Shown: positions 322-14,288 of the stretch, one piece after another
Numbering within the stretch: the stretch's first letter is position 1
How the letters are laid out: each line of letters begins with the position of its first letter
NCBI GenBank assembly: GCA_050012475.1
Contig: JBEKHC010000110.1
Location: forward strand, 1-15,603
Length of the DNA stretch: 15,603 nt
Direction: 5' to 3'
Source: Candidatus Velthaea sp.
GTDB lineage: Bacteria > Vulcanimicrobiota > Vulcanimicrobiia > Vulcanimicrobiales > Vulcanimicrobiaceae
Program-made: the position numbers and the translations under genes
Notes under the pieces: model-generated
What the model was told of the DNA's origin: nothing
The model's database searches: none
The model's input: only the letters and a program-made list of their open reading frames with translations

Positions 322-1260
322 ATGCGTTATTTCGTGACCGGATGCGCCGGATTCGTTGGGAGCACGTTTGCGGACCGGCTGTTGGGCGCCGGTCATTCCG
401 TTGTCGGGTTCGACAACTTCTCGACCGGTCGCGAAGCGTTCATCGCCGCTGCGCTGCGACATCCGAACTTCATGCTGCACCGGGGCGATTTGCTCGACGC
501 CGCGGCCGTGCGCGCCGCGGCTGCCGGCTGCGATACGATCGTGCATCTCGCGGCCAACGCAGACGTGCGGTTCGGAGCCGACCATCCGCTGCGCGATTTC
601 GAACAGAACGTCGGCGCGACGATGAACGTGCTCGAAGCCGCGCGGCTCAACGGGATCGCAACGATCGCGTTCTCATCCACGGGTTCGATCTACGGCGAGG
701 CCACGATCGTGCCGACGCCCGAAGACGCACCGATTCCCATTCAGACGTCGTTGTACGGCGCTTCGAAAATTGCCGCCGAAGGCTTCATCGAAGCGTACGC
801 CGAGGCGTTCGATCTGCGCGCGTTTATTTTCCGGTTCGTCTCGCTGCTGGGTGAGCGCTATACCCACGGCCACGTGCTGGATTTCTGCCGCCAGCTGCGC
901 GAACATCCGCGCGAACTCCACGTGCTGGGCGACGGCACCCAACGCAAGTCGTACCTATACGTCGGCGATTGCATCGACGCGATGCTGCTGGCCCTGGACC
1001 GTCCGGCGGGACGCGTGAACGTTTACAATCTGGGGTCGGACGGATATTGCCAAATCCACGACTCCGTGGCGTGGATCTCCGAACGGCTTGGCGTGCAGCC
1101 GCGCATCACGTACGGCGGCGGTGATCGTGGGTGGATCGGCGACAATCCGTTCATTTTTCTCGACACGGCGCGGATTCGGGAGCTGGGCTGGAACCCGACG
1201 TTGAGCATCCGCGCCGCCGTCGAGCGCACCGTCGATTTCATCGTGAAAGAGCAGTTGTGA
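322..1260 (+). CDS. NAD-dependent epimerase/dehydratase (extended SDR), 312 aa
   Basis: VTGCAGFVG Rossmann motif, HLAA, FSSTGSIYG, catalytic YGASK. Start moved from 142 to ATG322 (MRYFVTG), with GGAGA at 304-308. Confidence 0.93.
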   Translation: MRYFVTGCAGFVGSTFADRLLGAGHSVVGFDNFSTGREAFIAAALRHPNFMLHRGDLLDAAAVRAAAAGCDTIVHLAANADVRFGADHPLRDFEQNVGATMNVLEAARLNGIATIAFSSTGSIYGEATIVPTPEDAPIPIQTSLYGASKIAAEGFIEAYAEAFDLRAFIFRFVSLLGERYTHGHVLDFCRQLREHPRELHVLGDGTQRKSYLYVGDCIDAMLLALDRPAGRVNVYNLGSDGYCQIHDSVAWISERLGVQPRITYGGGDRGWIGDNPFIFLDTARIRELGWNPTLSIRAAVERTVDFIVKEQL

Positions 1261-2567
1261 ACGTCGGCGTCGTCGGGCTTTGGCATTTGGGAACCGTTAC
1301 CGCGGCGTGCCTGGCCGCCGCCGGACATACGGTGGTCGCGGTCGATACGGAGGCGGTGGTCGCGCCCCTCGCCGCCGGCGAAGTGCCGGTCGCCGAACCC
1401 GGTTTGGCCGAACTCGTCGCCGCCCAACGCACGGCCGGGCGGCTGGAGTTCGGTTCGGATCTGACGGCGCTGCGGGTTTGTGAGTTGGTTTGGATCACGT
1501 ACGATACACCGATCGACGCGTTTGATTGCGCCGACGTCGAGTTCGTCGTCGAACGCATCCGCGCGGTCATCGATTGCCTCGACGAGAGCGCGACAATCGC
1601 GGTGTCGTCGCAGTTGCCGGTGGGTTCGGTGGCGCGGCTGGAGCGAATCGCTGCCGCCGCCGGCAAGAGCGGCTCGCTTACGTTCGCGTCGATTCCGGAG
1701 AATCTGCGGCTCGGATCGGCGATCGCCTATTTTCGAACACCCGACCGCATGATCGTCGGCGTCCGCGATACGCTCGCGCGCGAACGCATCGCGCGCATGC
1801 TGGCCCCGTTCGTGGCCGACGTCAAGTGGATGCGCACGGAGTCGGCCGAAATGACGAAGCACGCGCTCAACGGTTTCTTGGCCACGTCGGTCGCGTTCAT
1901 GAATGAGATCGGTGCGGTGTGCGAGCGCGTCGGCGCCGACGCGCGGGAAGTCGAGATCGGGCTCAAGAGCGACGTGCGGATCGGTCCCAAAGCGTATCTG
2001 CGCGCCGGGCAAGCGTTTGCCGGCGGAACGCTGGCGCGCGATCTGGCCTTCCTCGCCGCGATCGGCGAGCGGACCGGGGTGGGCGTTGAACAGCTTACGG
2101 CAACCCAGGCAAGCAACCAACGACACAAGGATTGGCTCGCGGCGACGGTCGGTGCGGCGCTCGCCGGCAGTGGTGAGCCGGCCGTCGCGCTTTTGGGGCT
2201 GGTCTACAAGCCAGGCACGGATACCCTGCGCGCGTCGACGGCCCTCGAGCTGGCGCGCCGTCTGCGTGAGGCCGGGGTCCGGGTGAGCGGATTCGATCCG
2301 GCCATCGCTGTAGGCCGGGGCGAGCTCGCCGGCATCGTCGATGTGGCCGTGAGCGCCGCGGCGGCGCTGCTCGACGCGGACGTGGCGGTCGTCGCCACGC
2401 CCTGGCCGGCCTTCCGCGACCTGCGCGCGGCGGACTTTGCCGGGATGCGCGGACGCACGCTCGTCGACCCCGACCGCTTCCTCGATCCGGCGCATGCGGC
2501 GTTGAGCGGACTGACCTACGTGGCCTTCGGTGTGGGCGCACCCGACGCGGCAGTTGCGCACTCGTGA
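1257..2567 (+). CDS. UDP-glucose/GDP-mannose dehydrogenase family protein with non-canonical active site (no catalytic Cys)
   Basis: GVVGLWHLG, EPGL, PENLRLG, SAEMTKHALNGFLA, DVRIG, AFAGGTLARD (family GxGGxCxPKD), LGLVYKPGTDTLRAS. GTG1257 overlaps the upstream TGA (GTGA). Confidence 0.9.
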   Translation: MNVGVVGLWHLGTVTAACLAAAGHTVVAVDTEAVVAPLAAGEVPVAEPGLAELVAAQRTAGRLEFGSDLTALRVCELVWITYDTPIDAFDCADVEFVVERIRAVIDCLDESATIAVSSQLPVGSVARLERIAAAAGKSGSLTFASIPENLRLGSAIAYFRTPDRMIVGVRDTLARERIARMLAPFVADVKWMRTESAEMTKHALNGFLATSVAFMNEIGAVCERVGADAREVEIGLKSDVRIGPKAYLRAGQAFAGGTLARDLAFLAAIGERTGVGVEQLTATQASNQRHKDWLAATVGAALAGSGEPAVALLGLVYKPGTDTLRASTALELARRLREAGVRVSGFDPAIAVGRGELAGIVDVAVSAAAALLDADVAVVATPWPAFRDLRAADFAGMRGRTLVDPDRFLDPAHAALSGLTYVAFGVGAPDAAVAHS

Positions 2568-3418
2568 TACTCAAGGGGAAGCGCGCACTGGTAACGGGCG
2601 CTAATCAGGGCCTGGGTTTTGCAATCGCCGAGGCCTACACAGCAGCCGGGGCGGCGGTCGCGATATGCGCCCGGGATCGCGCCTTGCTCGAGGCGGCCGC
2701 GGAGTCGCTGCGCCGCGCGCACCCGGACGCCGATGTCTTCGCCCAGCCGTGCGACGTCGGCGATCGGGCCGATGTCGATCGGCTCTTCGCGGCGTTGGAT
2801 GCGCGGCAGGCCGGTCTGGACGTCGTGGTCTGTAACGCCGGGGTTTACGGGCCCAAGGGCGCCATCGAAACCGTCGACTGGGATGCGTGGGTCGACGCGC
2901 TGCGCATCAACTTGATCGGCACCGCGTACTGCGCGCGGCGCGCGCTGGCGTCGCTCGCGGGTTCGGCGCGAGGAAAAATCGTGATCATCTCCGGCGGCGG
3001 GGCGACCAAACCGCTGCCGAACCTGAGCTCCTATGCGGCCTCGAAGGCCGGGATCGTCCGCTTCGGCGAGACGCTGGCGGAGGAAACGCGCGGGCGCGGC
3101 ATCGACGTCAACATGATCGCGCCGGGGGCACTCAACACGCGCCTGCTCGACGAGATCCTCGCCGCCGGTCCGCAGACCGTCGGCGAAGCCTTTTTCGCCG
3201 CGTCGCTCAAACAACAGCAGACGGGCGGGACGCCGCTGGACGTCGCCGCTCGGCTGGCGGTTTTCCTAGCCTCGGGAGCCGCCGACGGGATCAGCGGCAA
3301 ACTCATCAGCGCCCCGTGGGATCCATGGGAGCGCTTCCGCGCCGACGATGAACGCTTGAACGGCGACGTCTATACCCTGCGGCGGATCGTTCCCGAAGAG
3401 CGGGGCTGGTCGTGGTAG
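2564..3418 (+). CDS. Classical short-chain dehydrogenase/reductase (probable keto-sugar reductase)
   Basis: TGANQGLG, CDV, CNAG, YAASK, IAPG motifs; GTGA overlap with the upstream gene. Confidence 0.9.
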   Translation: MILKGKRALVTGANQGLGFAIAEAYTAAGAAVAICARDRALLEAAAESLRRAHPDADVFAQPCDVGDRADVDRLFAALDARQAGLDVVVCNAGVYGPKGAIETVDWDAWVDALRINLIGTAYCARRALASLAGSARGKIVIISGGGATKPLPNLSSYAASKAGIVRFGETLAEETRGRGIDVNMIAPGALNTRLLDEILAAGPQTVGEAFFAASLKQQQTGGTPLDVAARLAVFLASGAADGISGKLISAPWDPWERFRADDERLNGDVYTLRRIVPEERGWSW

Positions 3419-4401
3419 CGAGCGGCGTTGCCATCGTCGGCTGCGGCTTGATCGGGCACAAACGCGCGAACGTGCTGCCCGCCGGAATGCTGCGCGTGGT
3501 GTGCGACATCGACCGGGCGCGAATGCGCGGGCTGGCGGAGCGCTACCCCGGCGTCGAAACCGAGCCGGACTGGCAGGCGGCGATCGAGCGCCCCGACGTG
3601 ACGATCGCGATCGTGGCCACCACCCACGATCAGCTGGCACCGATCACCGCGTTTGCCGCCGCGGCCGGAAAACACGTGCTGGTCGAGAAGCCCGCTGCCC
3701 GCCGGGCCGCCGAGCTCGACGCGGTCGATGCAGCGACCGCCAAAACCGGGGCGCTCGTGCGCGTCGGCTTCAACCACCGCTATCACCGCGCGCTGCGCAA
3801 GGCGCGCGAGATCGCCGATTCGGGCGTGCTCGGCCCGCTCACGCACGTCCGCGCGCGCTACGGGCACGGCGGCCGGCCCGGTTACGATCGTGAATGGCGT
3901 GCGCAACCGGTAATTTCGGGCGGCGGTGAAGCGATCGATCAAGGGATGCACGTGATCGACTTGGCGCGCTGGTTCCTGGGTGACTTCACCGACGTGCACG
4001 GATTCATGCCGCGCTATTTTTGGGACATGCCGGTGGAAGACAACGCGTTTTTTCTGTTGCGCACGGCCGCGGGGCAAGTCGCGCAGCTGCACACCTCGTG
4101 GACGGAATGGAAGAACTTGTTTTCGTTCGAGCTCTTTGGCCGGATGGGAAAACTGGACGTCCGCGGTCTGGGCGGCAGCTACGGGGTTGAAACGTTGGCC
4201 TACTATGCGATGTCGCCCGAGATGGGTCCGCCCGAGACCACTATTTACGAGTACCCGATGGGCGATGATTCGTGGAACGCCGAATTCACGGCGTTTCTCG
4301 ACGACGTCGCCGCGCACCGCCGGCCCGATCCGACGGTCGCCGATGCGCGCGCGGCGCTGGCGGTGATCGAGCGCATCTACGCGGCCGAGGCGGCGCGATG
4401 A
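3412..4401 (+). CDS. Gfo/Idh/MocA family oxidoreductase
   Basis: IVGCGLIG, GKHVLVEKP, VGFNHRY, GGGEAIDQGMHVID; 7-nt overlap with the SDR; stop forms ATGA with the next gene. Confidence 0.92.
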   Translation: MVASGVAIVGCGLIGHKRANVLPAGMLRVVCDIDRARMRGLAERYPGVETEPDWQAAIERPDVTIAIVATTHDQLAPITAFAAAAGKHVLVEKPAARRAAELDAVDAATAKTGALVRVGFNHRYHRALRKAREIADSGVLGPLTHVRARYGHGGRPGYDREWRAQPVISGGGEAIDQGMHVIDLARWFLGDFTDVHGFMPRYFWDMPVEDNAFFLLRTAAGQVAQLHTSWTEWKNLFSFELFGRMGKLDVRGLGGSYGVETLAYYAMSPEMGPPETTIYEYPMGDDSWNAEFTAFLDDVAAHRRPDPTVADARAALAVIERIYAAEAAR

Positions 4402-5378
4402 TCATCACGCGCAGCCCGCTGCGGATCTCGCTGGGCGGCGGCGGCACCGATTTGCCGTCGTACTATCGCGAGCACGGCGGTTTTCTGGTCGCGGCGGCGA
4501 TCGACCGCTACGTCTATATCACGCTGCACGAGACGTTCGTCGAAGAATGCATCATCAAGTACTCGCAGCTCGAACGCGTGTCGTCGGTCGATGCGATTGC
4601 GCATCCGCTCATTCGTGAAGCGCTGCGGATGACCGGCACGCCGACGGCGTACTTGGAGATCGCGAGCATGTCGGACATCCCGGCCGGAACGGGGTTGGGC
4701 TCGTCGGGCAGTTTCACGACGGCGCTGTTGCACGCACTGCACGTGATGAATCGCGAGATCGTCACGAAGGATCGGCTCGCCGAAGAAGCCTGCCGCATCG
4801 AGATCGACGTGCTGCGCGAAAGCGTGGGCAAGCAAGACCAGTATATCGCGGCGTATGGCGGGATCACGTCTTTTGCGTTCGAACGCGACGATAGCGTGCG
4901 CGTGGCGCCGGTCCGGCTCGATCCCGAGACGCGCTCGAACTTGCAAGACAATCTCGTGTTGTTCTTCACCGGGTACACGCGCTCGGCCTCAAAGATTCTC
5001 AGCGATCAGGATCAGCGCACCAAGAGCGGCGACCGCTCGACGATCGACGGCCTGCACTACGTCAAGGAGCTCGGCCGCGCCAGCCACGCCGCGCTCGAGT
5101 CCGGCGACCTGCGCCGTTTCGCCGAGCTGATGCACGAACATTGGGAGTACAAACGCAAGCGGCCTAATGGCATGTCAAATCCGCAGATCGACGCGTGGTA
5201 TGAAACCGGGCGCCGGCACGGCGCACTCGGCGGGAAAATCATCGGCGCGGGCGGCGGCGGATTTCTGATGTTTTACACCGAGGAAAAATCGCGCTTGCGG
5301 CGCGGTATGGTCGAAGCCGGACTTAAAGAGGTGCGTTTGAATTTCGACGTTCAGGGCACGACCGTCGTCACATTGTAG
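4398..5378 (+). CDS. hddA: GHMP sugar kinase, D-glycero-alpha-D-manno-heptose-7-phosphate kinase (HddA)-like
   Basis: PLRISLGGGGTD, PAGTGLGSSGS ATP motif, GKQDQY, GGKIIGAGGGGF; start at ATG4398 (ATGA overlap). Family is clear, exact substrate is inferred. Confidence 0.88.
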   Translation: MIITRSPLRISLGGGGTDLPSYYREHGGFLVAAAIDRYVYITLHETFVEECIIKYSQLERVSSVDAIAHPLIREALRMTGTPTAYLEIASMSDIPAGTGLGSSGSFTTALLHALHVMNREIVTKDRLAEEACRIEIDVLRESVGKQDQYIAAYGGITSFAFERDDSVRVAPVRLDPETRSNLQDNLVLFFTGYTRSASKILSDQDQRTKSGDRSTIDGLHYVKELGRASHAALESGDLRRFAELMHEHWEYKRKRPNGMSNPQIDAWYETGRRHGALGGKIIGAGGGGFLMFYTEEKSRLRRGMVEAGLKEVRLNFDVQGTTVVTL

Positions 5379-5385
5379 GAGTTTG

Positions 5386-6084
5386 ATGCTCCCGTTCGCG
5401 ATTTTATGCGGCGGGCTGGGCACGCGGATGCGCCCGGCAACGTTGACGCTGCCCAAGCCCATGCTCGAGGTTGCGGGCGAGCCGTTCCTCGGGCATTTGC
5501 TGCGCTATGTCGCCGCGCAGGGAGGTAGCCGAGCGGTGCTCTGTATCGGCTACCGAGGCGAACTCATCCGCGCGTTCGCGGGCGACGGTTCGCGCTTCGG
5601 ACTCGAGCTTGCTTATGTCGAGGACGGCGCGACGCCGCTGGGGACGGCCGGCGCGGTGCGGGCTGCGCTCGCGCAACTGGGCGACGCCTTTTTCGTCCTT
5701 TTCGGCGACGCTTTTTTGCCGATCGACTATCGCGCGGTCGAGCAGTGCTTCCTTGCCGCGGGGACGGAGGGTCTCATGACGGTCTATGCCGATCCGAACT
5801 CGTACCATCCGGCGAACGTCGAGGTCGCAGGGGGACGGGTGGTGGCGTACGACAAACTGCACCCGACACAACGCATGACGTTTATTGACTACGGGTTGAG
5901 CGCGTTTCGCGCATCCGCGTTTACCGGCATCGAACCCGGGACGGCAGCGGACTTGAGTGCGGTGAACCAGCGCCTCATCGCAGCGGGCCAACTGAGCGCA
6001 TTCCAGGCGCAGCAGCGCTTTTACGAGATCGGTTCGCCCGAAGGCATGGCGCTCACGACCGCATACCTGCGCGAGGAAAAATAA
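5386..6084 (+). CDS. hddC: Sugar-1-phosphate nucleotidyltransferase, HddC-like (probably guanylyltransferase)
   Basis: LCGGLGTRM...LPKPM signature, PLGTAGA, LFGD, EIGSPE; AGGAG at 5377-5381 before ATG5386; follows an HddA-like kinase. Confidence 0.82.
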   Translation: MLPFAILCGGLGTRMRPATLTLPKPMLEVAGEPFLGHLLRYVAAQGGSRAVLCIGYRGELIRAFAGDGSRFGLELAYVEDGATPLGTAGAVRAALAQLGDAFFVLFGDAFLPIDYRAVEQCFLAAGTEGLMTVYADPNSYHPANVEVAGGRVVAYDKLHPTQRMTFIDYGLSAFRASAFTGIEPGTAADLSAVNQRLIAAGQLSAFQAQQRFYEIGSPEGMALTTAYLREEK

Positions 6085-6087
6085 CGA

Positions 6088-6705
6088 GTGAACACCGTCG
6101 CACCGCAAACATTCTCGGCGTCTTTTCTGGCCGAAGCGCAAGAGGTGATCGGGAAGATCAACGTCGACGACGTCGAGCGCATGGTGCAGATCCTCGCGCA
6201 GACCAAAGCCCGCGGCGGTCGCCTGTTCGTGCTGGGCGTCGGCGGCAGCGCCGGAAACGCCTCGCACGCGGTGAACGATTTCCGCAAAATCGTCGGGCTC
6301 GAAGCATACGCGCCGACCGATAACGTATCGGAATTGACGGCGCGGACCAACGATGACGGTTGGGCCAGCGTCTTCGTCGAGTGGCTCAAAACCAGCCGGC
6401 TCCGGAGCAGCGACACGATCTGCGTCTTTTCCGTCGGCGGCGGAAACCTCGAGAAGATGGTCAGCCCGAATTTGGTGCACGCGCTGCGCTATGCCAAGGA
6501 GGTCGGCGCGTCGATCGTCGGCGTGGTCGGGCGCGACGGCGGCTTCACCGCGACCGTGGCCGATGCGTGCGTGATCATCCCGACGGTGAACGCCGATCAC
6601 ATCACGCCGCATTCCGAAGCATTCCAAGCAGTCGTCTGGCACCTGATCGTCTCGCATCCGGCGCTCAAGGCGGTCCAAACCAAATGGGAGTCGGTCGCGA
6701 AGTGA
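6088..6705 (+). CDS. gmhA: SIS-domain sugar-phosphate isomerase, GmhA-like (divergent)
   Basis: GVGGSAGNASHAVNDF, LTARTNDDGW, FSVGGG..SPN, VGRDGG, C-terminal EAFQAVVWH; GAGG upstream of GTG6088. Confidence 0.8.
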   Translation: MNTVAPQTFSASFLAEAQEVIGKINVDDVERMVQILAQTKARGGRLFVLGVGGSAGNASHAVNDFRKIVGLEAYAPTDNVSELTARTNDDGWASVFVEWLKTSRLRSSDTICVFSVGGGNLEKMVSPNLVHALRYAKEVGASIVGVVGRDGGFTATVADACVIIPTVNADHITPHSEAFQAVVWHLIVSHPALKAVQTKWESVAK

Positions 6706-7241
6706 AGGCTGGCGGCGCGCGCGCCGTGTTCTTCGATCGCGACGGCGTCATCAACGCGGCGGTCCTGCGCGACCGCAAACCGCATCCGCCCGCGTCGGCC
6801 GACGAATTGGAGATCGATGCCGACGCCGCCGCGGTCGTCGCCGGTCTGCGCCGGCGCGATTTCGACGTCATCGTGTTCACCAATCAACCCGATGTCGCGC
6901 GCGGGACGACGCCGCGCACGGCGGTCGAGTCGATCCACACGACGATCGCGGAACGGACCGCGATCGATGCGTTTTACGTGTGCTACCACGACGATGCCGA
7001 CCGCTGCGCGTGCCGCAAGCCGTTGCCAGGGATGTTGCTGTCGGCAAGCGCGGAGCGCGGCATCGATCTGCAGCGCTCGTACGTCGTCGGCGACCGCTGG
7101 CGGGATATCGAAGCCGGAAAACGTGCGGGCTGCCGGACCGTCTGGATCGACCGCGGTTACGACGAACCCCCGGCCGATGCACCGGCGCGCCGGGTCACCA
7201 ATCTGCTCGAAGCCTACGAATGGATCATCCATGATTGCTAA
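6702..7241 (+). CDS. gmhB: HAD-IIIA sugar-bisphosphate phosphatase, GmhB-like
   Basis: FFDRDGVIN (DxD), TNQPD, zinc motif CYH...CACRKP, VGDRWRD; GTG6702 overlaps the SIS stop (GTGA). Confidence 0.9.
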   Translation: MKAGGARAVFFDRDGVINAAVLRDRKPHPPASADELEIDADAAAVVAGLRRRDFDVIVFTNQPDVARGTTPRTAVESIHTTIAERTAIDAFYVCYHDDADRCACRKPLPGMLLSASAERGIDLQRSYVVGDRWRDIEAGKRAGCRTVWIDRGYDEPPADAPARRVTNLLEAYEWIIHDC

Positions 7242-7980
7242 CGCGCTTCAGCCGGCGGCTGCAGCTTCTGCCCTCAAGCGGCTACGGGTCAAGCTCTTCG
7301 CCGACGGCGCGGATGTCGACGGGATGCGCGAGATGGCCGCCAACCCGGCCATTGCCGGATTCACGACCAACCCGACGTTGATGCGCAAAGCCGGCATCGG
7401 CGACTACGCGAGGTTTGCGCGCGACGTGCTCGCCCTGGTTCCGGATCGCCCGATTTCGTTTGAGGTGTTTTCGGACGATTTCAAAGAGATGGAGCGCCAA
7501 GCGCGGACCATCAACGCGTGGGGAACGAACGTTTACGTGAAGATCCCCGTCACGAACACGAAAGGCGAGAGCGCGGCCAAGCTCGTGCATGCTCTCAGCG
7601 CCGACGGGATCAAGCTCAACGTCACCGCGCTGACGACGCTCGAGCAGGTGGGGGTCGTCACCGATGCGTTAGCGGCGGAAACGCGGGGCTATGTGTCAAT
7701 CTTTGCCGGGCGCATCGCCGATACGGGCCGCGACCCGATGCCGATCATGAAGGCGGCGGTCGCGCGGCTTGCCCGCAAACCGCTGCTCGAATTGATCTGG
7801 GCGAGCCCGCGCGAGGTGCTCAACGTTTTCCAGGCCGACGAAGTCGGCTGCCAGATCATCACCGCGACCAACGATATCCTCAAGAAACTCGCCATTGTGG
7901 GCAAAGATCTTACGCAGTACTCGCTCGAGACGGTAAAGATGTTCCACGACGACGCACGGGCAGCAGGCTACCGGATATAG
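7231..7980 (+). CDS. tal: Transaldolase (short MipB/TalC-type), 249 aa
   Basis: FADGAD, GFTTNPTL, ISFEV (acid/base Glu), VYVKIPV (Schiff-base Lys), NVTA, SIFAGRIAD, WASPR. Glu plus Phe indicates transaldolase rather than fructose-6-phosphate aldolase (Gln/Tyr). ATG7231 overlaps the gmhB end by 11 nt. Confidence 0.92.
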   Translation: MIANALQPAAAASALKRLRVKLFADGADVDGMREMAANPAIAGFTTNPTLMRKAGIGDYARFARDVLALVPDRPISFEVFSDDFKEMERQARTINAWGTNVYVKIPVTNTKGESAAKLVHALSADGIKLNVTALTTLEQVGVVTDALAAETRGYVSIFAGRIADTGRDPMPIMKAAVARLARKPLLELIWASPREVLNVFQADEVGCQIITATNDILKKLAIVGKDLTQYSLETVKMFHDDARAAGYRI

Positions 7981-7998
7981 GGAGCATCCCTATGCCGG
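7971..7998. terminator. Inverted repeat between convergent genes; possible bidirectional terminator or 3' stabilising hairpin
   Basis: ATAGGGA(7977-7983)-GCA-TCCCTAT(7987-7993) perfect 7-bp stem, extendable by CCGG/CCGG with one bulge and one G-U pair. No U-tract on either strand. Confidence 0.45.
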
Positions 7999-8889
7999 GA
8001 CGCGGGCGAAGGCCATGAGTTCGCCGATGTTGATCGAGATCGGTGCGTTGGTGATGTTGCTGGGGATCATGCGCGCCGCGGTGCGGTAGGCGCGTACGGG
8101 AAGCGGAAGGTACATTTCCACCTGTCCGGCGAGATAGTCGGCCGTGAGCGTTTTGCGCGCAACGGTGATGCGGACATCGGTGAGGCCGGCTCGGGTAAGT
8201 GCGAGCAGCAGCGAGCGGCGTGAGAAAAGCACGGTGTGCTGCATCGGCTGCAGCATCGGCCACTTCGAGCGCAACAGGTAACGCAAGAAATGACCGGTGT
8301 CCGGCGTCGTCACGACGACGGTCGCTTCGGGTGCCGCGACCGAACGCAGACTCTGCAAGAATCCGATTGGGTCGAACGTGTGTTCGATGATATCGAATGC
8401 GGTGACCACCGCATAGGGCGCTTCGCCGCGGGCGGTGAGTGCGTTGACGTCACCCAACGTGAGCCGCTCGCGCAGGTGCGCCGGGGCACTGGCGATCGCT
8501 TCGGCCGACAACTCGAGCCCGTAGGCATCGAACCCGGCTTTGATCGCTTCGTCGATGAAGTAACCGCACGAGGCGCCGACGTCGAGCAGGCGTCCCATGC
8601 CGCTCGACGCCCGGATCTTCGCCGCCCGGCGTGAGAACGTCAGCGATTTGAGCGCTGCGGCGTTGACATAGTCAGCGTACACCCCGGACGCGTATTGGGC
8701 GTTGACGTAGTCGCGCATCTGCTCGAGCGTCGGCATCGGTGCCTGGAAAAGCGTCGCGCAGACCGGGCAATCATAATAGGTGGCCGGAGGCAGCGTGCAA
8801 GAGCGCCGGCCGGGGCCGCCGCAAATCGGACAGGCGGCCTGCGGAGCCGGGTCGTTAGGCCGTGACGTCAAGGCGCTGAGAGTCTGCAT
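7990..8889 (-). CDS. Class I SAM-dependent methyltransferase with N-terminal CxxC...CxxC zinc ribbon
   Basis: CPIC...CPVC, LLDVGASCGYF (motif I), GLELS, TAFDIIEHTFDP, VVTTP. Start uncertain; overlaps the upstream SDR by 35 nt. Confidence 0.88.
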   Translation of the reverse strand: MQTLSALTSRPNDPAPQAACPICGGPGRRSCTLPPATYYDCPVCATLFQAPMPTLEQMRDYVNAQYASGVYADYVNAAALKSLTFSRRAAKIRASSGMGRLLDVGASCGYFIDEAIKAGFDAYGLELSAEAIASAPAHLRERLTLGDVNALTARGEAPYAVVTAFDIIEHTFDPIGFLQSLRSVAAPEATVVVTTPDTGHFLRYLLRSKWPMLQPMQHTVLFSRRSLLLALTRAGLTDVRITVARKTLTADYLAGQVEMYLPLPVRAYRTAARMIPSNITNAPISINIGELMAFARVPA

Positions 8890-9682
8890 ACAGTCGTTCG
8901 ATTCTTTTCTCGAGAATGCGGTCGAAGAGCGGGTTCATCACGAAGGGTGCCGCCTCATAGAGCCACGCGGCGAGCCCCAGCGTCCGCGGGATGTAGCACA
9001 CCGGTCGACCGCGTTCGAGAGCGCGGATCGTCTCGGCAGCCACTCGCGTAATTGGAACGCTATTACGCGTTTCCGGGCCGCGCGTCCGCTCGACGAATGT
9101 CGGATGCGCGAAGAACGGCGTCTCAACGCGCCCCGGACAGATCGCCGTCACGCTGATACCGAATCGGCGCAATTCGTGCCGGAGCGCCGCCGCGAGGCCC
9201 ATCATCCCGTGCTTTGCGGCACAGTAGGTTGCGTTTGGCGTGATCGGGATCCGCCCGGCAATCGACGCCATGAAACCGATCGCGCCGCCGCGCCGCGCGA
9301 TCATCGGCGGCAGCAATAATTTTGTCAGCCCGACGTGCCCGGTAAAATTAACGGCGAGCAGCCGGTCGATTTCATCGGGGTCGCTTGCCTCGAAGGCACG
9401 ATAGACGCCGAAGCCCGCGTTGTTGATGAGCACGTCCGGAGCGCCCTCGCGCAGCACATCGGCGGCCAGCCGTTTCACGGCCTCACGGTCTCCGATGTCG
9501 GCAACGAAGCCGGAAACCGCTGCCGCATGCCGTTTGAGATCGGCCAACGCGGATTCGACGTTCTGCTCGTCGTGGCCGACGATGGCGACCTCATTTTCAC
9601 GGTGCAAAAGCGCCGCAGCAATTGCTTTCCCGATTCCGCTCGAACCGCCGGTAATCACAATTCGTTTGCCGCGCAGGATCAC
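8855..9682 (-). CDS. Classical short-chain dehydrogenase/reductase, 275 aa
   Basis: ITGGSSGIG, LINNAG, ASIAG, YCAAK, ICPG. Start moved to GTG9682 (VILRGKRIVITG) with GGATGGA upstream; this removes the overlap with the divergent GT2 gene. Confidence 0.9.
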   Translation of the reverse strand: MILRGKRIVITGGSSGIGKAIAAALLHRENEVAIVGHDEQNVESALADLKRHAAAVSGFVADIGDREAVKRLAADVLREGAPDVLINNAGFGVYRAFEASDPDEIDRLLAVNFTGHVGLTKLLLPPMIARRGGAIGFMASIAGRIPITPNATYCAAKHGMMGLAAALRHELRRFGISVTAICPGRVETPFFAHPTFVERTRGPETRNSVPITRVAAETIRALERGRPVCYIPRTLGLAAWLYEAAPFVMNPLFDRILEKRIERLYADSQRLDVTA

Positions 9683-9762
9683 GCCGTTCCATCCACGCGG
9701 CCGTAGATTCTCAACCGCACAACCATGTCCCCTCACCCTTGACGCAAACGAGGACAATCACT

Positions 9763-11316
9763 TTGGATGCGAAAAGTGCGCAAGCTGCGATGCATCAGTC
9801 AGTAATCGAATCGTCGCCGAGAACGCTCATCCGCTGTCCGCTTTGCACTGCCGATCGTCTCGAATACGAGTTTAACCTCGCGACCGTTCCCGTTTCGCGG
9901 TGCGCCGACTGCTTGCTGCTGTTTCTCAATCCGCAGCCCGCGGCGCTGGAGGGCGCGCCGCCGGCGTGCGTCGATCTCACGGCGCTCGTCCGGCGCGACG
10001 TCGAACGTTTGCGCCAAGTTGCTCACCTCGGCAGCGCGGACGCCATCCTCGTGGTCGTCCCGTGGCTTCCCAGCGACGCCGCGGACGTCGGGGCGCGCGT
10101 CGTCACCGAGCAGCAAATGCTCGACGGCGCGGTGGCGCACGAGACGTTCGACGCCTGCGCGTTCGTTCACGCACTGGAACGCTCGCGCGATCCGCAATCG
10201 GCGCTGGCCGTCGGGCTCGAACGGTTGCGCCCGGGCGGCTCGGTTTCGGCCACGTGCACGTCGATCGACAGCCCGGCGGCGCGCTACTTCGGTGCCCGCT
10301 GGTGGGGCTTCGAGCCGTCGACGCGCTTCTATTTCGGCGTCAACACGCTGCAGAATTGTATGGCCCGCGCCGGCTTGGGCGAGTTCATGGTCTTTCACGA
10401 GAACGATCCCGAACGGCTGCATCCCAGCGCGCCGCTCATCGTCCGCGGGCTCAAGATACTGGGCCTGCGGCGCGCCGCAGCGCACCACCGGTATGGGAAA
10501 CGGCTTTTGGCGAGCGAACTGACGATCGTCGGCAAGCGCGTCGACCGGAACGCCTCTCCCAAGTTGTCCGTCATCGTTCCGGTGTATAACGAGCGCCGAA
10601 CGTTCAACGAACTCATCGAACGCGTTCTCGAGAAAACGATCGACGGTATCGATATCGAGATCATCATCGTCGAAAGCAATTCGACCGATGGCACGCGTGA
10701 CGACGTCATCGCCCTTGCCGATCATCCGCGCGTTCGGATCCTTCTGCAAGATCGCGCCCAAGGCAAGGGCAACGCGGTACGAGCGGGCCTCATGCACGCC
10801 AGCGGTGATATCGTGCTGTTTCAGGACGCCGATCTGGAATACGATGTCGGCGACTACGACCAGCTGGTGCGGCCGATTGCCGAATTCAAGCAAAATTTCG
10901 TCATTGGCTCGCGGCACAACAGCTTGGGCTCGAGCTGGAAAGTCCGCGACTTCAATAAAGCACCGATCCTTTCGCAGGTCTTCAATCTCGGCCATTTGAT
11001 CTTTCTGGGTCTGCTCAACTCCATGTATGGTCAGAAACTGGCCGATCCGTTCAGTATGTTCAAGGTTTTCCGGCGCGATTGCCTGGCGGGCCTGACCTTC
11101 GAGTGCAACCGCTTCGACTTCGATTTCGAGATCGTCATCAAATTGTTGCGCAAGGGCTACCGGCCGATTGAGATCCCGGTGAACTATCACTCGCGTTCGA
11201 TCAGCGAAGGCAAGAAAGTCACCATGATCCGCGATCCTCTTACGTGGATTCGTGCGCTGATCAAATACCGCAATACCGAGTTATATGCGTCGACGAATCT
11301 AACCCCGCGACCATGA
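9763..11316 (+). CDS. Fusion: zinc ribbon + degenerate methyltransferase-like domain + family 2 glycosyltransferase (DPM1-like, probable polyprenol-phosphate glycosyltransferase)
   Basis: GT2 from 10561: KLSVIVPVYNE, IIVESNSTDGT, GKGNAVRAG, FQDADLEYD (DxD), VIGSR, FDFDFEI. N-terminus CPLC...CADC and FDAC...LERSRDP...LRPGG. Start TTG9763 chosen for GAGGA at 9750-9754; ATG9790 is an alternative. Confidence 0.88.
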   Translation: MDAKSAQAAMHQSVIESSPRTLIRCPLCTADRLEYEFNLATVPVSRCADCLLLFLNPQPAALEGAPPACVDLTALVRRDVERLRQVAHLGSADAILVVVPWLPSDAADVGARVVTEQQMLDGAVAHETFDACAFVHALERSRDPQSALAVGLERLRPGGSVSATCTSIDSPAARYFGARWWGFEPSTRFYFGVNTLQNCMARAGLGEFMVFHENDPERLHPSAPLIVRGLKILGLRRAAAHHRYGKRLLASELTIVGKRVDRNASPKLSVIVPVYNERRTFNELIERVLEKTIDGIDIEIIIVESNSTDGTRDDVIALADHPRVRILLQDRAQGKGNAVRAGLMHASGDIVLFQDADLEYDVGDYDQLVRPIAEFKQNFVIGSRHNSLGSSWKVRDFNKAPILSQVFNLGHLIFLGLLNSMYGQKLADPFSMFKVFRRDCLAGLTFECNRFDFDFEIVIKLLRKGYRPIEIPVNYHSRSISEGKKVTMIRDPLTWIRALIKYRNTELYASTNLTPRP

Positions 11317-14288
11317 CGCTCCCCGTTCGGCTCGTGCGTTCCGCGAGCGGGGACGTTTTCGCTGCTGCTCTCGTGCTCGCTTTGCTGCTCAACGTCACGT
11401 TTTTCCCCTACCTTTGGTTGGGGAAGACATTGCTCAGCAGTGCCGCCGATGCGCCGAGCATCTACGATCGCGGAGCCGAACCGAGCCCAATGGTCGGCGA
11501 TCGTGCGCCCAAACTCATCGATTATGGTGCGCCCGCATGGCAGACAGAACCCGATTTCGCGCAGATTCATCGTCAGATTTTTGACGAAAAGCACCTGCCG
11601 CTTTGGAACCCCTCGATCGGTTACGGCCAGCCGTTAGCTGCCGACCTGCAGGCTCAGCCGTTTTTCCCGCTTTCGATCATCGCGTTCTGGCACCCATCGC
11701 CGGCAGCCTACAACTGGTGGTGCGTCGCGCGGCTCTTTGTCGCAGGGCTCGGCGCCTTCTGCTTTTTGCGGCTCTTTACGAGCTTTTGGCCTGGGCTCGC
11801 CGCCGGCATATCGATGATGTTCGCCGGTTACTATCTGCTCTATTACGATATTCCGCATCTAAGCGTAGAAACGCTCATCCCTTGGCTGTTCTACGTCAAC
11901 GAACGCATCGTCCGCGCGCCCCGGTTCTCGAATATCTGTTGGGCGGCCGGCGCAAACGTCTTGGTGTATTTGGGCGGAATGCCCGAGTCGGCGCTCCTTG
12001 CGCTCGGCTTCGCCTACCTCTACGCGGTGTATCGCGTGGTGACGTATCGAGCGCTTCGACCGCGCGCCCTGCGGGTAGGGGCAGGATTGGTGATCGAGGC
12101 CGTTGCGGGGGTCGGAGCATCGGCTTTCTTGCTGCTGCCGTTTATGGAATACGTGCGCGTCGCGCTGGATCAGCACCGGCCGGAAAATATCGGCGGGGTC
12201 ATTACCGGTGCGTTGCCCGACTACGGGAGTCTCTATCAGCTTCTCACGTACATCGTTCCGCTGATCTTCGGACCGCCATGGGGCAATGTTACAACGAACC
12301 TCAGCGGTTTTTCCGGGGCCCGCGGATTTTTCGGCATTGCGGGGTTGTTTCTCGCACTCGTCGCCATTTTCGGCGCCGCCGGCGATCGATCTCGCCGCCA
12401 ATATGCGTGGACCGGGCTGGTGCCGTTTTTTGCCGTCGCCGCTTGTTTTTTCGTCCTCAAGCGATTCGGTAGTCCGCTGGTCAACTGGGTCGGCTATCTG
12501 CCCGGCTTCTCACTCGTCCTATTCGTCAAGTATGAAGAACCGTTGCTGGCTTTTGCCGTAGCCGCAATGGTTGGATTCGGCTGCGCGCGCATTGCCGACG
12601 CCCGCCCGTCCGGAATCATTCGGTGGTGGTCGGCAGTCGTCGCTCTGGGGTGCTTGACTGCGACGTACGCGGTTGTCAGAGTGCTGGTGACGCCGGCGAT
12701 GGTTGGTCGCGGGTACACGATTTACAGTCTAATTTTTGCGATCGGCATCCTGGGTTTGATGGTGCTCGCGGCTGCAGCGCTGGGAACGGCGCGCTCCCGA
12801 CTGCGGCGAGCAGGCGCGTCGGTCGCCATCGTCGCGGTCGTCGCAATCGAAGCCATTGGCGACTTTCTCGTTCCGATGCATTATATGGTCGAACAACCGC
12901 CGTCGAGCGCTCGCAATCCGTATCGCGGCGCGCCGTTCGTAACCTACCTCGAGTCGGCAACGCGGCACGGTTACGAGCGCGTGCTCGGTCAAGACGATCT
13001 GCTCTATCCCAATTGGGCCGGGGCGTTCGCTCTTTACGACGTGCGGGATCTCGATGCAATGTACGAACAGCACTACCTGCCCTTCGTACGTGCTTTTCTG
13101 GCCGCAAATCCCGAGGATCCGCTCTTCAAGGACCGCTTCACGCAAGCGCCGCAATTGGAAACACCGCCGCAGCGTCGGTTTTTGGCGTTGTCATCGGTAC
13201 GCTATATCATCACGACGCAAGGCCTCGATCTGAGCGACTCCTTCTTCGGTCCGGCTCATTCCCAGAACGTCGCCAGCCTGCCGGCGGAAAAGAAGCCTTC
13301 GTTGGCGTTGAAGCGTTACGCGATCGCAGGCGTCGAGCGCGAAGGACTACTCGAGCACCCGCCCTTCGAGCGCCTACCGATGCACATCGTCATCCCGCGC
13401 GATGCAAAAGGTTTGAATTTCGGAATCGGCATGGATCCCGCCGTCTACGCGCCCGGTGTGAACATCTGCGGCGCAGGAGCCGAATTCCGCCTGGAGATCC
13501 GCGATGCCGGCGGCCGCATCACGCCGCTCTTTCGGCGTTACATCGATCCCAAGCACATCGTCGGCGAACGGCACTGGATCGACCAGACCGTTCCGGTCGC
13601 TCCCTGGGCCGGGCAACCCGTCGACATCCTGTTGTCCACAGCTCCGGGCCCGCAAGGCAACACCTGTGCCGATTGGGCTGTATGGGGCGGCGGCCGCTTC
13701 GTTCCGCAGCAGCCAGCAACGCGAGCGCACTCCGACTTCGAGCTGGTTTTTCGCGACGGCAAGGTGCTCGTCTATCGCTTTGACGGCGCGCTTCCCCGCA
13801 TCGGTATTTACGACAACGTCAAGACGACCGCGACGGCAGAGGCTGCTTTGGCGGCTCTAACCGCACCGGGCTTCAACGTGTCGAGCACGGTCGTCATCAC
13901 GCCCGACGGGCCGCAAGCCTCGCGTGAGGTCGCCGCCGTGGACGGTGCTCCCGCTGCCGTTCGCGCGGGAACATTGCTGGCGTACGACGCGCAAGATGTG
14001 AAAGCACGGGTCGTTCTTTCGCGCACGGGCGTCGTCGTTCTCAACGACACGTACTATCCGGGTTGGCGGGCTTACGTGGACGGCAAGCAGACAACGCTTT
14101 TGCGCGCCGATGCGCTCTTTCGAGGCGTCGTCGTCGGCCCGGGCGAGCATCTCGTCGAATTCAGATATGAACCCCAGTCGTTTGTGGCGGGGGTCGCGAT
14201 CACGTCGGCGACGATCGCTTCCGGAATCGCGGCAGCGTTCTTTTTGCGGATGCGCCGTCGCCGGGTGCCGCTTCAAAAAGCGGCGTGA
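11313..14288 (+). CDS. YfhO-family polytopic membrane protein (GT-C-type, lipid-phosphate-sugar-dependent glycosyltransferase), 991 aa
   Basis: LPLWNPSIGYGQP N-terminal loop, many hydrophobic segments in the first ~520 aa, C-terminal VLNDTYYPGWRAYVDG...FRGVVVGPGEHLVEFRYEP plus final TM helix; ATG11313 overlaps the GT2 stop (ATGA). Confidence 0.87.
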   Translation: MTLPVRLVRSASGDVFAAALVLALLLNVTFFPYLWLGKTLLSSAADAPSIYDRGAEPSPMVGDRAPKLIDYGAPAWQTEPDFAQIHRQIFDEKHLPLWNPSIGYGQPLAADLQAQPFFPLSIIAFWHPSPAAYNWWCVARLFVAGLGAFCFLRLFTSFWPGLAAGISMMFAGYYLLYYDIPHLSVETLIPWLFYVNERIVRAPRFSNICWAAGANVLVYLGGMPESALLALGFAYLYAVYRVVTYRALRPRALRVGAGLVIEAVAGVGASAFLLLPFMEYVRVALDQHRPENIGGVITGALPDYGSLYQLLTYIVPLIFGPPWGNVTTNLSGFSGARGFFGIAGLFLALVAIFGAAGDRSRRQYAWTGLVPFFAVAACFFVLKRFGSPLVNWVGYLPGFSLVLFVKYEEPLLAFAVAAMVGFGCARIADARPSGIIRWWSAVVALGCLTATYAVVRVLVTPAMVGRGYTIYSLIFAIGILGLMVLAAAALGTARSRLRRAGASVAIVAVVAIEAIGDFLVPMHYMVEQPPSSARNPYRGAPFVTYLESATRHGYERVLGQDDLLYPNWAGAFALYDVRDLDAMYEQHYLPFVRAFLAANPEDPLFKDRFTQAPQLETPPQRRFLALSSVRYIITTQGLDLSDSFFGPAHSQNVASLPAEKKPSLALKRYAIAGVEREGLLEHPPFERLPMHIVIPRDAKGLNFGIGMDPAVYAPGVNICGAGAEFRLEIRDAGGRITPLFRRYIDPKHIVGERHWIDQTVPVAPWAGQPVDILLSTAPGPQGNTCADWAVWGGGRFVPQQPATRAHSDFELVFRDGKVLVYRFDGALPRIGIYDNVKTTATAEAALAALTAPGFNVSSTVVITPDGPQASREVAAVDGAPAAVRAGTLLAYDAQDVKARVVLSRTGVVVLNDTYYPGWRAYVDGKQTTLLRADALFRGVVVGPGEHLVEFRYEPQSFVAGVAITSATIASGIAAAFFLRMRRRRVPLQKAA

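What the first reader, a model, noticed from the sequence alone, without database searches (positions are those of the whole stretch)
1257..2567. UDP-glucose dehydrogenase homologue with a rewired active site (Cys to Thr)
Seen: family motif GGxCxPKD reads GGTLARD (Thr codon ACG at 2028-2030, residue 258); KST(V/I)PVG reads SSQLPVG; PEFLREG reads PENLRLG; GxGYVG reads GLWHLG. The conserved Lys/Asn (TKHALN) and the Asp after the nucleophile position are retained, and the frame is intact. Known: the Cys forms the thiohemiacetal/thioester needed for four-electron oxidation to a uronic acid. Inference: it cannot make a uronate and automated annotation as ugd would be wrong. It may perform dehydration or two-electron chemistry with the Gfo/Idh/MocA protein, like LmbL/LmbZ.
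Basis: partly seen in the sequence, partly recalled or inferred. Interest (0 to 1): 0.8.

Follow-up and report, generated by a model that had tools for sequence, protein, structure and literature searches.

The report
Lincomycin-type enzyme in surface-sugar cassette
This gene encodes a relative of UDP-glucose dehydrogenase that has the same cysteine-to-threonine swap as LmbL, an enzyme of lincomycin biosynthesis, and it sits in a widespread nine-gene operon that likely builds an undescribed deoxygenated eight-carbon sugar for the cell surface rather than a sugar acid.

Summary
Observation confirmed. Codon ACG (2028-2030) puts Thr258 at the catalytic Cys position of an intact gene. Thr is kept in 120 of 120 close homologues and 144 of 150 distant representatives, and the genome has a separate canonical ugd. 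This is an LmbL/CcbL-subfamily member, not a one-off rewired UGDH. The nine-gene operon has counterparts of eight of the nine lincosamide octose genes, with an NADPH-type SDR where they have the aminotransferase LmbS. That SDR lies directly downstream in 63 of 67 related loci and is sometimes fused. Best reading (0.55): 6-oxidation and, with the LmbZ-like Gfo enzyme, 8-dehydration of GDP-octose; then SDR reduction to a GDP-8-deoxy-octose for lipid-linked surface glycosylation. No uronate: about 0.9. Chain length, product and division of labour are inferred. The primary LmbL paper could not be read. This scan noted the same subfamily before on three other genomes.

The parts
1257..2567 (+). LmbL/CcbL-subfamily NDP-sugar dehydrogenase-fold enzyme, 436 aa (the finding)
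   Evidence: model pLDDT 92, pTM 0.87; Foldseek top hits all UGDHs; 36% to LmbL, shared signature
2028..2030 (+). ACG, Thr258, at the position of the catalytic Cys (SpUGDH Cys260; Thr265 in LmbL P0395)
322..1260 (+). NAD-dependent epimerase, LmbM/CcbM counterpart; nearest solved structures are GDP-sugar 4-epimerases (3EHE, 8RDG)
   Evidence: 37%, best hit in genome; directly upstream in 53 of 62 loci
2564..3418 (+). Classical SDR with intact S143/Y157/K161 and invariant R37 (NADPH-type, inferred); no counterpart in the lincosamide-type loci
   Evidence: adjacent in 63 of 67 loci; fusions
3412..4401 (+). Gfo/Idh/MocA oxidoreductase, LmbZ/CcbZ counterpart
   Evidence: 39% over 293 aa, shared motifs
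4398..5378 (+). GHMP sugar-phosphate kinase (HddA/LmbP counterpart)
5383..6084 (+). Nucleotidyltransferase (HddC/LmbO counterpart)
6088..6705 (+). SIS phosphosugar isomerase (GmhA/LmbN counterpart); shares an FSVxGG-plus-insertion motif with the CcbN-type protein that the genome's two other SIS copies lack
6702..7241 (+). HAD phosphatase (GmhB/LmbK counterpart)
   Evidence: 46%, best hit in genome
7228..7980 (+). Transaldolase, TIGR02134 type (functional counterpart of LmbR; orthology not shown)
7990..8889 (-). SAM methyltransferase, convergent; possible sugar tailoring, link not shown
8855..9757 (-). Second SDR (true start probably further in); link not shown
9739..11316 (+). Methyltransferase-like domain plus GT2 (best NCBIfam match AglJ-type, below cut-off); likely polyprenyl-phosphate glycosyltransferase
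   Evidence: homologues beside the cassette in several loci
11244..14288 (+). YfhO-like polytopic membrane protein (about 10 hydrophobic segments); likely GT-C transferase

Best explanation
The protein is a member of the cysteine-less LmbL/CcbL branch of the UDP-glucose dehydrogenase family and likely acts on GDP-octose, not UDP-glucose. Inferred pathway: the transaldolase, SIS isomerase, GHMP kinase, HAD phosphatase and nucleotidyltransferase would make GDP-octose. The LmbM-like enzyme would set the C4 (and perhaps C6) configuration. This enzyme would use NAD+, Lys201 and Asp262 to oxidise C6, which in an octose is a secondary alcohol, so the reaction stops at a ketone and needs no thiohemiacetal. 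With the LmbZ-like Gfo enzyme, the C8 hydroxyl would be eliminated and C7 re-reduced, a net redox-neutral 6,8-dehydration to GDP-8-deoxy-6-keto-octose. The adjacent NADPH-type SDR would reduce the 6-ketone to a hydroxyl at the step where lincosamide producers aminate it with LmbS. The GDP-8-deoxy-octose would be loaded on a polyprenyl phosphate by the GT2 and transferred to a surface glycan by the YfhO-like protein. Shown: the substitutions, subfamily membership, operon and gene linkage. Inferred: substrate, chain length, which of L and Z does which half-step, product and destination.
For: (1) Named LmbL and CcbL have Thr at this position and the whole signature. (2) With 37 signature columns removed, all 14 Cys-less rows lie on one side of a 99/99 branch from all 9 Cys-bearing rows, three of which come from the genomes that hold the lincosamide-type loci. 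(3) The nine octose genes of the celesticetin-type cluster in G598/G462 were searched against the whole genome. O, P, Z, M, L and K hit this window best; N and R hit it a close second; the aminotransferase S has no hit here. (4) No SDR was found in the six lincosamide-type stretches. An LmbS-like gene was found in 3 of 90 loci (80 metagenome plus 10 other; many are short). (5) The losses are coordinated: of 18 residues invariant in four-electron NDP-sugar dehydrogenases (PMC4794789, passages), 14 are kept and Gly9, Thr118, Gly257 and Cys260 are changed; Tyr10 (thioester hydrolysis) is His. The NAD contacts D30, T84 and R325 and the C6 residues K201, N205 and D262 are kept (mapped). (6) A review states that LmbM, LmbL, CcbZ and CcbS convert GDP-octose to GDP-lincosamide (PMC12945683, passage); lincosamine is a 6-amino-6,8-dideoxy sugar with no carboxyl (established knowledge). 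(7) In 15 loci with at least 6 kb on each side: SDR 15, kinase 14, SIS 14, Gfo 13, nucleotidyltransferase 13, transaldolase 13, epimerase 12, phosphatase 12. (8) Epimerase neighbours are GDP-preferring. (9) The SIS insertion is shared with the CcbN-type protein.
Against: Identity to LmbL is only 36%, and the lincosamide proteins form their own long branch; their place inside the Cys-less group is unresolved (AU p 0.236). The transaldolase is not a demonstrable LmbR orthologue: 32% identity, tied with another genome copy, and Glu where the CcbR-type protein has Gln. Eight carbons are therefore not shown. The Gfo tree did not resolve a window-plus-CcbZ clade. Fusions seen are to SDRs (5 of 8; two of them only 33-36% like the window SDR) and an epimerase (1 of 8), none to Gfo. 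Canonical SpUGDH oxidises a 6-C-methyl (secondary alcohol) analogue 10,000-fold more slowly than UDP-glucose (PMC6367545, passage). Trp replaces the second Gly of GxGxxG, which could impair NAD binding. The GT2 was recognised at 35% or more in only 2 of the 15 long loci. The 6,8-dehydration assignment to LmbL/CcbZ is recalled from Wang et al. 2020, which was not held.
Confidence: 0.55

Rival explanations
1. Two-electron C6 dehydrogenase paired with the SDR, without dehydration. It oxidises C6 of GDP-heptose (or octose) to a ketone, the SDR reduces it from the other face, and the net result is C6 epimerisation; the Gfo enzyme does a separate redox step.
For: The SDR is the constant neighbour (63 of 67) and fusion partner (Atlas cluster of 67 SDR-UGDH fusions, Thr status not checked). 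The kinase, isomerase and phosphatase resemble GDP-heptose enzymes (all below cut-off). The transaldolase keeps the classical Glu/Phe pair (residue roles recalled).
Against: LmbL has the same active-site signature and works in a pathway with no SDR. The CcbZ counterpart is retained in 13 of 15 long loci. A dedicated transaldolase in 13 of 15 loci is hard to explain if sedoheptulose-7-phosphate from central metabolism sufficed (inference).
Confidence: 0.22
2. The protein is not the hydride-transfer catalyst. It binds the GDP-sugar and acts as a lyase or tautomerase (H10, D83, H202 as acid/base) or as a scaffold, while the Gfo enzyme does the redox chemistry of the same dehydration.
For: Gly9 to Trp in the Rossmann loop in 120 of 120 close homologues; new invariant polar residues H10, D83, Q119, N149 and H202. 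H10, D83 and Q119 are shared even with the distant GGNLERD clade.
Against: D30, T84, E148, K201, N205, D262 and R325 are all conserved. The model keeps the full UGDH fold.
Confidence: 0.13
3. Still a four-electron dehydrogenase that makes an NDP-uronate (hexuronic, or octuronic at C8) through a hydrated aldehyde or a Thr ester.
For: Automated names say UDP-glucose 6-dehydrogenase. Cys-to-Ala and Cys-to-Ser mutants of UGDH still oxidise the hydrated aldehyde or form an ester (PMC6367545, passages).
Against: The lincosamide sugar has no carboxyl although LmbL has the same site. Tyr10 and Thr118 are lost along with the Cys. The genome has a canonical GGSCFPKD enzyme and a GGHCIPID enzyme elsewhere.
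Confidence: 0.07
4. A decaying ugd copy under relaxed selection, or an assembly error.
For: None found.
Against: Intact frame in a translationally coupled operon (gaps -14 to +4 bp); Thr invariant with all four codons; dN/dS below 1 in 4 of 4 pairs; same codon in four runs.
Confidence: 0.01

Closest known systems
LmbL (Streptomyces lincolnensis, P0395) and CcbL (S. caelestis, P0393), with LmbZ/CcbZ, LmbM and LmbS/CcbS, of lincomycin and celesticetin biosynthesis
   Same: Thr at the nucleophile position, GLWHLG, YD, SQ, PENLRLG, KHAxN and KPxTxTLR; counterparts of K, L, M, N, Z, P, O and R in one operon.
   Different: 36% identity; GGTLARD against GATLRRD/GSTLQRD; an SDR instead of the aminotransferase LmbS. 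None of the lincosamide condensation genes was recognised among the 14 window proteins scanned; GT2 and YfhO-like genes are present instead. Different transaldolase subtype. SDR fusions occur in this branch.
UDP-glucose 6-dehydrogenase / NDP-sugar dehydrogenase family (BceC 2Y0E, UgdG 4A7P, SpUGDH HasB, AlgD 1MFZ, human UGDH)
   Same: Three-domain fold (TM 0.81-0.90 by query, 23-32% identity); 14 of 18 family-invariant residues; K201, N205 and D262.
   Different: Cys260 is Thr, Tyr10 His, Thr118 Gln, Gly9 Trp, Gly257 Ala and Glu145 Leu: the covalent-catalysis and thioester-hydrolysis set is gone.
GDP-D-glycero-alpha-D-manno-heptose pathway (GmhA, HddA, GmhB, HddC)
   Same: Same four enzyme classes.
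   Different: All four score far below the NCBIfam cut-offs (e.g. gmhA 54 against 209 bits). The operon adds a transaldolase, the L/Z/M counterparts and an SDR.
Three-component lipid-linked glycosylation systems (GT2 + flippase + GT-C; GtrB/YfhO-type)
   Same: GT2 and a YfhO-like polytopic protein lie downstream. The Lawsonia plasmid copy has a GT2, an LPG_synthase_TM protein and two proteins of about 1090 aa.
   Different: No flippase was identified in the window; the acceptor glycan is unknown; GT2 linkage is partial across loci.

Membership tests
NDP-sugar 6-dehydrogenase (UGDH/GMD, four-electron) | PF03721 + PF00984 + PF03720 architecture and fold | tested here: met
NDP-sugar 6-dehydrogenase (UGDH/GMD, four-electron) | Catalytic Cys (SpUGDH Cys260) in GGxCxPKD | tested here: not met
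   Thr258; no other invariant Cys
NDP-sugar 6-dehydrogenase (UGDH/GMD, four-electron) | Tyr10 and Thr118 (thioester hydrolysis, catalytic water); GxGxxG | tested here: not met
   His10, Gln119, Trp9 (residue roles from PMC4794789)
NDP-sugar 6-dehydrogenase (UGDH/GMD, four-electron) | Lys204, Asn208, Asp264, Asp29, Thr83, Lys320, Arg327 | tested here: met
   K201, N205, D262, D30, T84, K318, R325
NDP-sugar 6-dehydrogenase (UGDH/GMD, four-electron) | Forms NDP-uronate with 2 NADH | not testable with these tools
   needs an assay
LmbL/CcbL subfamily | Thr at the nucleophile position plus the W9/H10/D83/Q119/N149/L152/H202/T323 signature | tested here: met
   identical at all nine positions in P0395 and P0393; the signature was defined here by alignment, not taken from a paper
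LmbL/CcbL subfamily | Groups with LmbL-type proteins apart from Cys-bearing enzymes when the signature columns are left out | tested here: met
   99/99 branch, 14 against 9 rows, small outgroup sample, LG+G4; quick 48-row tree agrees
LmbL/CcbL subfamily | Encoded with LmbZ, M, K, N, O, P and R counterparts | tested here: met
   six best hits and two second-best hits in the genome
LmbL/CcbL subfamily | Acts on GDP-octose together with LmbZ/CcbZ (6,8-dehydration) | not testable with these tools
   activity recalled; the review passage confirms only the four-enzyme conversion
Lincosamide antibiotic cluster (lmb/ccb) | Aminotransferase LmbS | tested here: not met
   no hit on the window contig; SDR instead
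Lincosamide antibiotic cluster (lmb/ccb) | Condensation genes (LmbC, D, E, F, T, V, carrier protein) | tested here: inconclusive
   none among the 14 window proteins scanned; the rest of the genome was not searched for them
GDP-heptose pathway (GmhA/HddA/GmhB/HddC) | Equivalog-level scores for the four enzymes | tested here: not met
   all four below cut-off

The most novel reading that the evidence does not exclude
A nine-gene cassette spread across many bacterial groups, including plasmids of Lawsonia intracellularis and Rhizobium jaguaris, makes a neutral 8-deoxy-octose for cell-surface glycans that has not been described. The lincomycin sugar pathway is an offshoot of this cassette, in which the terminal SDR was exchanged for an aminotransferase. 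The Cys-less UGDH fold would then be a general C6-oxidase/dehydratase for higher-carbon NDP-sugars, with at least three branches (this SDR-linked one, the lincosamide one and the GGNLERD one) each leading to a different sugar.
Probability: 0.4. Interest if true: 0.7.

Novelty: new variant of a known kind. Interest (0 to 1): 0.5.

Why it matters
Many proteins named 'UDP-glucose 6-dehydrogenase' by their sources lack the machinery for that reaction; GLWHLG...TLxRD marks them. Tying the branch to LmbL gives a concrete, assayable prediction: GDP-octose, minus water, plus two hydrogens. It points to a common but apparently undescribed eight-carbon surface sugar and suggests where the lincomycin sugar pathway came from. 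It also offers many homologues for a first structure of an LmbL-type enzyme; none was among the 30 PDB sequence hits or the listed fold hits. The enzyme type is already known from lincosamide work, so this is an extension, not a new kind of system.

Tried and rejected
Gfo tree: did not resolve a window-plus-CcbZ clade (window group 75/90, other genome copies 55/83); the orthology claim rests on best hits and motifs. The careful 48-row tree did not finish; the quick tree is cited. The AU test of 'lincosamide L plus canonical' as one side was not rejected (p 0.236), so nesting of LmbL inside the window's branch is not claimed. The genome-contig scan used a single protein and gave only 7 loci. 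In the phylum survey (151 genomes) only the 20 top loci and 12 wider stretches were read: 5 of the top 20 (the window included) are Thr-type and 15 are Cys-type. A search from the GGNLERD clade did not return LmbL; the idea that this clade is the LmbL type was rejected when LmbL proved to be Thr-type. The transaldolase search of 401 genomes of the genus of G208 found 3 hits. The opposite-strand ORF 1023-2561 was disregarded as a shadow frame (no family test run on it). Literature: searches found no paper on the Cys-to-Thr branch or on a surface-glycan version of the cassette. The library lacks most subscription journals, and Wang 2020 (PNAS), Sasaki 2012, Lin 2014 and Mori 2024 were not held; the LmbL substitution may be noted there or in their supplements.
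Full report
Observation. The gene at 1257-2567 is an intact 436-aa member of the UDP-glucose/GDP-mannose dehydrogenase fold; the AlphaFold model has pLDDT 92 and all listed Foldseek hits are UGDHs. Bases 2028-2030 are ACG, Thr258, which HMMER aligns to the catalytic Cys of three solved bacterial UGDHs. Contigs from four public runs cover the codon without a difference; one of them may be the source sample.

The change marks a conserved branch. Thr258 is present in 120 of 120 listed homologues, the protein itself included, and in 144 of 150 representatives of 50%-identity clusters. All four Thr codons are used (87 motif hits in 88 loci), and dN/dS is 0.18-0.55 in four pairs, with dS near saturation. 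Against the 18 residues invariant in four-electron NDP-sugar dehydrogenases (PMC4794789; passages seen), 14 are kept. Gly9, Thr118, Gly257 and Cys260 are changed, and Tyr10, which hydrolyses the thioester, is His. I mapped these through the alignments; SpUGDH itself was not shown residue by residue. The genome has a canonical GGSCFPKD enzyme and a GGHCIPID enzyme on other contigs, so uronate supply does not depend on this gene (inference).

It is an LmbL. A transaldolase search of 401 genomes in the genus of G208 gave 3 hits. Two of them, G598 and G462, lie in clusters with the gene inventory of the published celesticetin cluster (PMC4351081 section 20 and part 1 of supplementary file 1 seen). 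A search with their L gene returned proteins named LmbL (P0395) and CcbL (P0393) by their sources. Both have Thr at the nucleophile position (Thr265 in LmbL) and share W9, H10, D83, Q119, N149, L152, H202 and T323 with the window protein; identity to LmbL is 36% over 434 residues. Thr is in 120 of 120 hits of that search too. With 37 signature columns removed, 14 Cys-less rows are split from 9 Cys-bearing rows at 99/99. The outgroup is small, and the position of the lincosamide proteins inside the Cys-less group is unresolved (AU p 0.236).

The operon. Nine genes from 322 to 7980 are coupled with gaps of -14 to +4 bp: epimerase, this gene, SDR, Gfo/Idh/MocA, GHMP kinase, nucleotidyltransferase, SIS isomerase, HAD phosphatase and transaldolase. 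The nine octose genes of the celesticetin-type cluster were searched against the whole genome. O, P, Z, M, L and K hit this window best; N and R hit it a close second; the aminotransferase S has no hit on this contig. Conversely, the SDR has no hit in the six lincosamide-type stretches. Among 80 metagenome loci, the SDR is directly downstream in 63 of the 67 with at least 500 bp of flank, and the epimerase is directly upstream in 53 of 62. The 15 loci with at least 6 kb on both sides carry each of the other eight genes 12 to 15 times. An LmbS-like gene was seen in 3 of 90 loci, many of them short. The cassette, in varying order, is also in Lawsonia and Rhizobium plasmids, a Ryanbacteria genome, and G053, G117, G036 and G098; not every copy showed all nine genes in the stretch read. 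Of 8 long hits examined, 5 are fused to an SDR, in both orders, 1 to the epimerase and none to Gfo; 2 are tandem Cys-type proteins. The SDR keeps Ser143, Tyr157 and Lys161 and has Arg37 in 36 of 36 rows, the pattern of NADPH-using reductases (recalled). The epimerase's nearest solved relatives are GDP-sugar 4-epimerases (PMC12171764 passages). A GT2 and a YfhO-like membrane protein follow, but the GT2 was recognised at 35% or more in only 2 of the 15 long loci. Homologue names suggest the host belongs to Vulcanimicrobiota (inference), and the runs holding this DNA are mostly peat and soil metagenomes.

Mechanism. A review states that LmbM, LmbL, CcbZ and CcbS convert GDP-octose to GDP-lincosamide (PMC12945683, passage). 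I recall from Wang et al. 2020 that LmbL and CcbZ together carry out a 6,8-dehydration; that paper was not held and I saw only its reference line. The UGDH fold presents C6 to NAD+. In an octose C6 is a secondary alcohol, so oxidation ends at a ketone, and the Cys, Tyr and Thr needed for the second oxidation become dispensable, which matches the residues lost. I infer C6 oxidation by this protein, elimination of the C8 hydroxyl and re-reduction at C7 with the Gfo enzyme, and reduction of the 6-ketone by the SDR where lincosamide producers aminate it. The product would be a GDP-8-deoxy-octose for lipid-linked surface glycosylation (0.55). Against this: the transaldolase is not a shown LmbR orthologue and differs at the acid-base position, so eight carbons are not proven. 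The Gfo tree is unresolved. Canonical UGDH oxidises a secondary-alcohol analogue 10,000-fold more slowly (PMC6367545, passage). Trp in the Rossmann loop may hinder NAD binding. For eight carbons: the cassette usually carries its own transaldolase, and its SIS protein shares an insertion with the CcbN-type protein that the genome's other two SIS copies lack. Rivals: C6 epimerisation with the SDR (0.22), a non-redox role in the same dehydration (0.13), uronate formation (0.07), decay (0.01).

Novelty. The enzyme is a new member of the LmbL/CcbL kind. The cassette, with an SDR in place of LmbS and surface-glycosylation genes, is a new variant, and my searches found no paper on it; the library lacks most subscription journals and the primary lincomycin papers. 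Three earlier notes of this scan reached a similar reading on other genomes. The excerpts shown named LmbL as closest known but did not show whether its sequence had been compared. The direct LmbL/CcbL comparison and the SDR-for-LmbS swap are what I tested here. Interest 0.5.

Noticed in passing
L005:9986-11284, L006, L007:9893-11266, L008, L009 (P0271 and hits): A second Cys-less branch: GGNLERD in 120 of 120 listed hits, with a new Cys at the SpUGDH Ser117 position (CQVPPG; Ser in L007/L009). In L007 it lies with transaldolase, SIS, phosphatase, an HldE-type PfkB/cytidylyltransferase, several epimerases, Gfo, a methyltransferase and a split transketolase-like pair, with no SDR found; it may build a branched higher-carbon sugar.
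   Followed up: partly
L144:10066-19750 and L145:1-343 (G369): A lincosamide-type octose cassette with aminotransferase, a GT1-type glycosyltransferase and an ABC transporter; its L protein (AGATLHRD) is only 42% identical to the one in L141. Possibly an uncharacterised lincosamide-like or octose natural-product cluster.
   Followed up: partly
P0398-P0462: About 60 proteins 48-57% identical to the CcbL-type query, mostly metagenomic, one from Rhodococcus sp. 06-235-1A, plus closer ones from Allokutzneria and other Streptomyces; their neighbourhoods were not read.
   Followed up: no
L031:2971-23580 (NC_008014.1): A Lawsonia intracellularis plasmid carries the whole cassette with a GT2 (56% to the window's), an LPG_synthase_TM protein and two unannotated proteins of about 1090 aa, near ABC-permease and rfbC genes.
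   Followed up: partly
L004:14352-17592: In a Ca. Ryanbacteria genome two B12-binding radical SAM genes and a SufS/NifU-type pair lie between the L gene and the SDR.
   Followed up: no
window 9739-11316: The GT2 has an N-terminal region of about 270 aa that resembles a SAM methyltransferase with a zinc-ribbon-like start, similar in plan to the methyltransferase at 7990-8889.
   Followed up: partly
window 14273-15508 (- strand): A 411-aa ORF with no Pfam or NCBIfam hit, apparently with repeated domains.
   Followed up: no
L137 (G598) against window 7228-7980: The CcbR-type transaldolase has Gln where the window and Lawsonia enzymes have Glu (ISFEV), and the genome's other family member (C15) looks like a fructose-6-phosphate aldolase (residue roles recalled).
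   Followed up: partly
P0136, P0210: Proteins of 910-942 aa made of two UGDH units in tandem; three of the four halves showed a Cys motif.
   Followed up: partly
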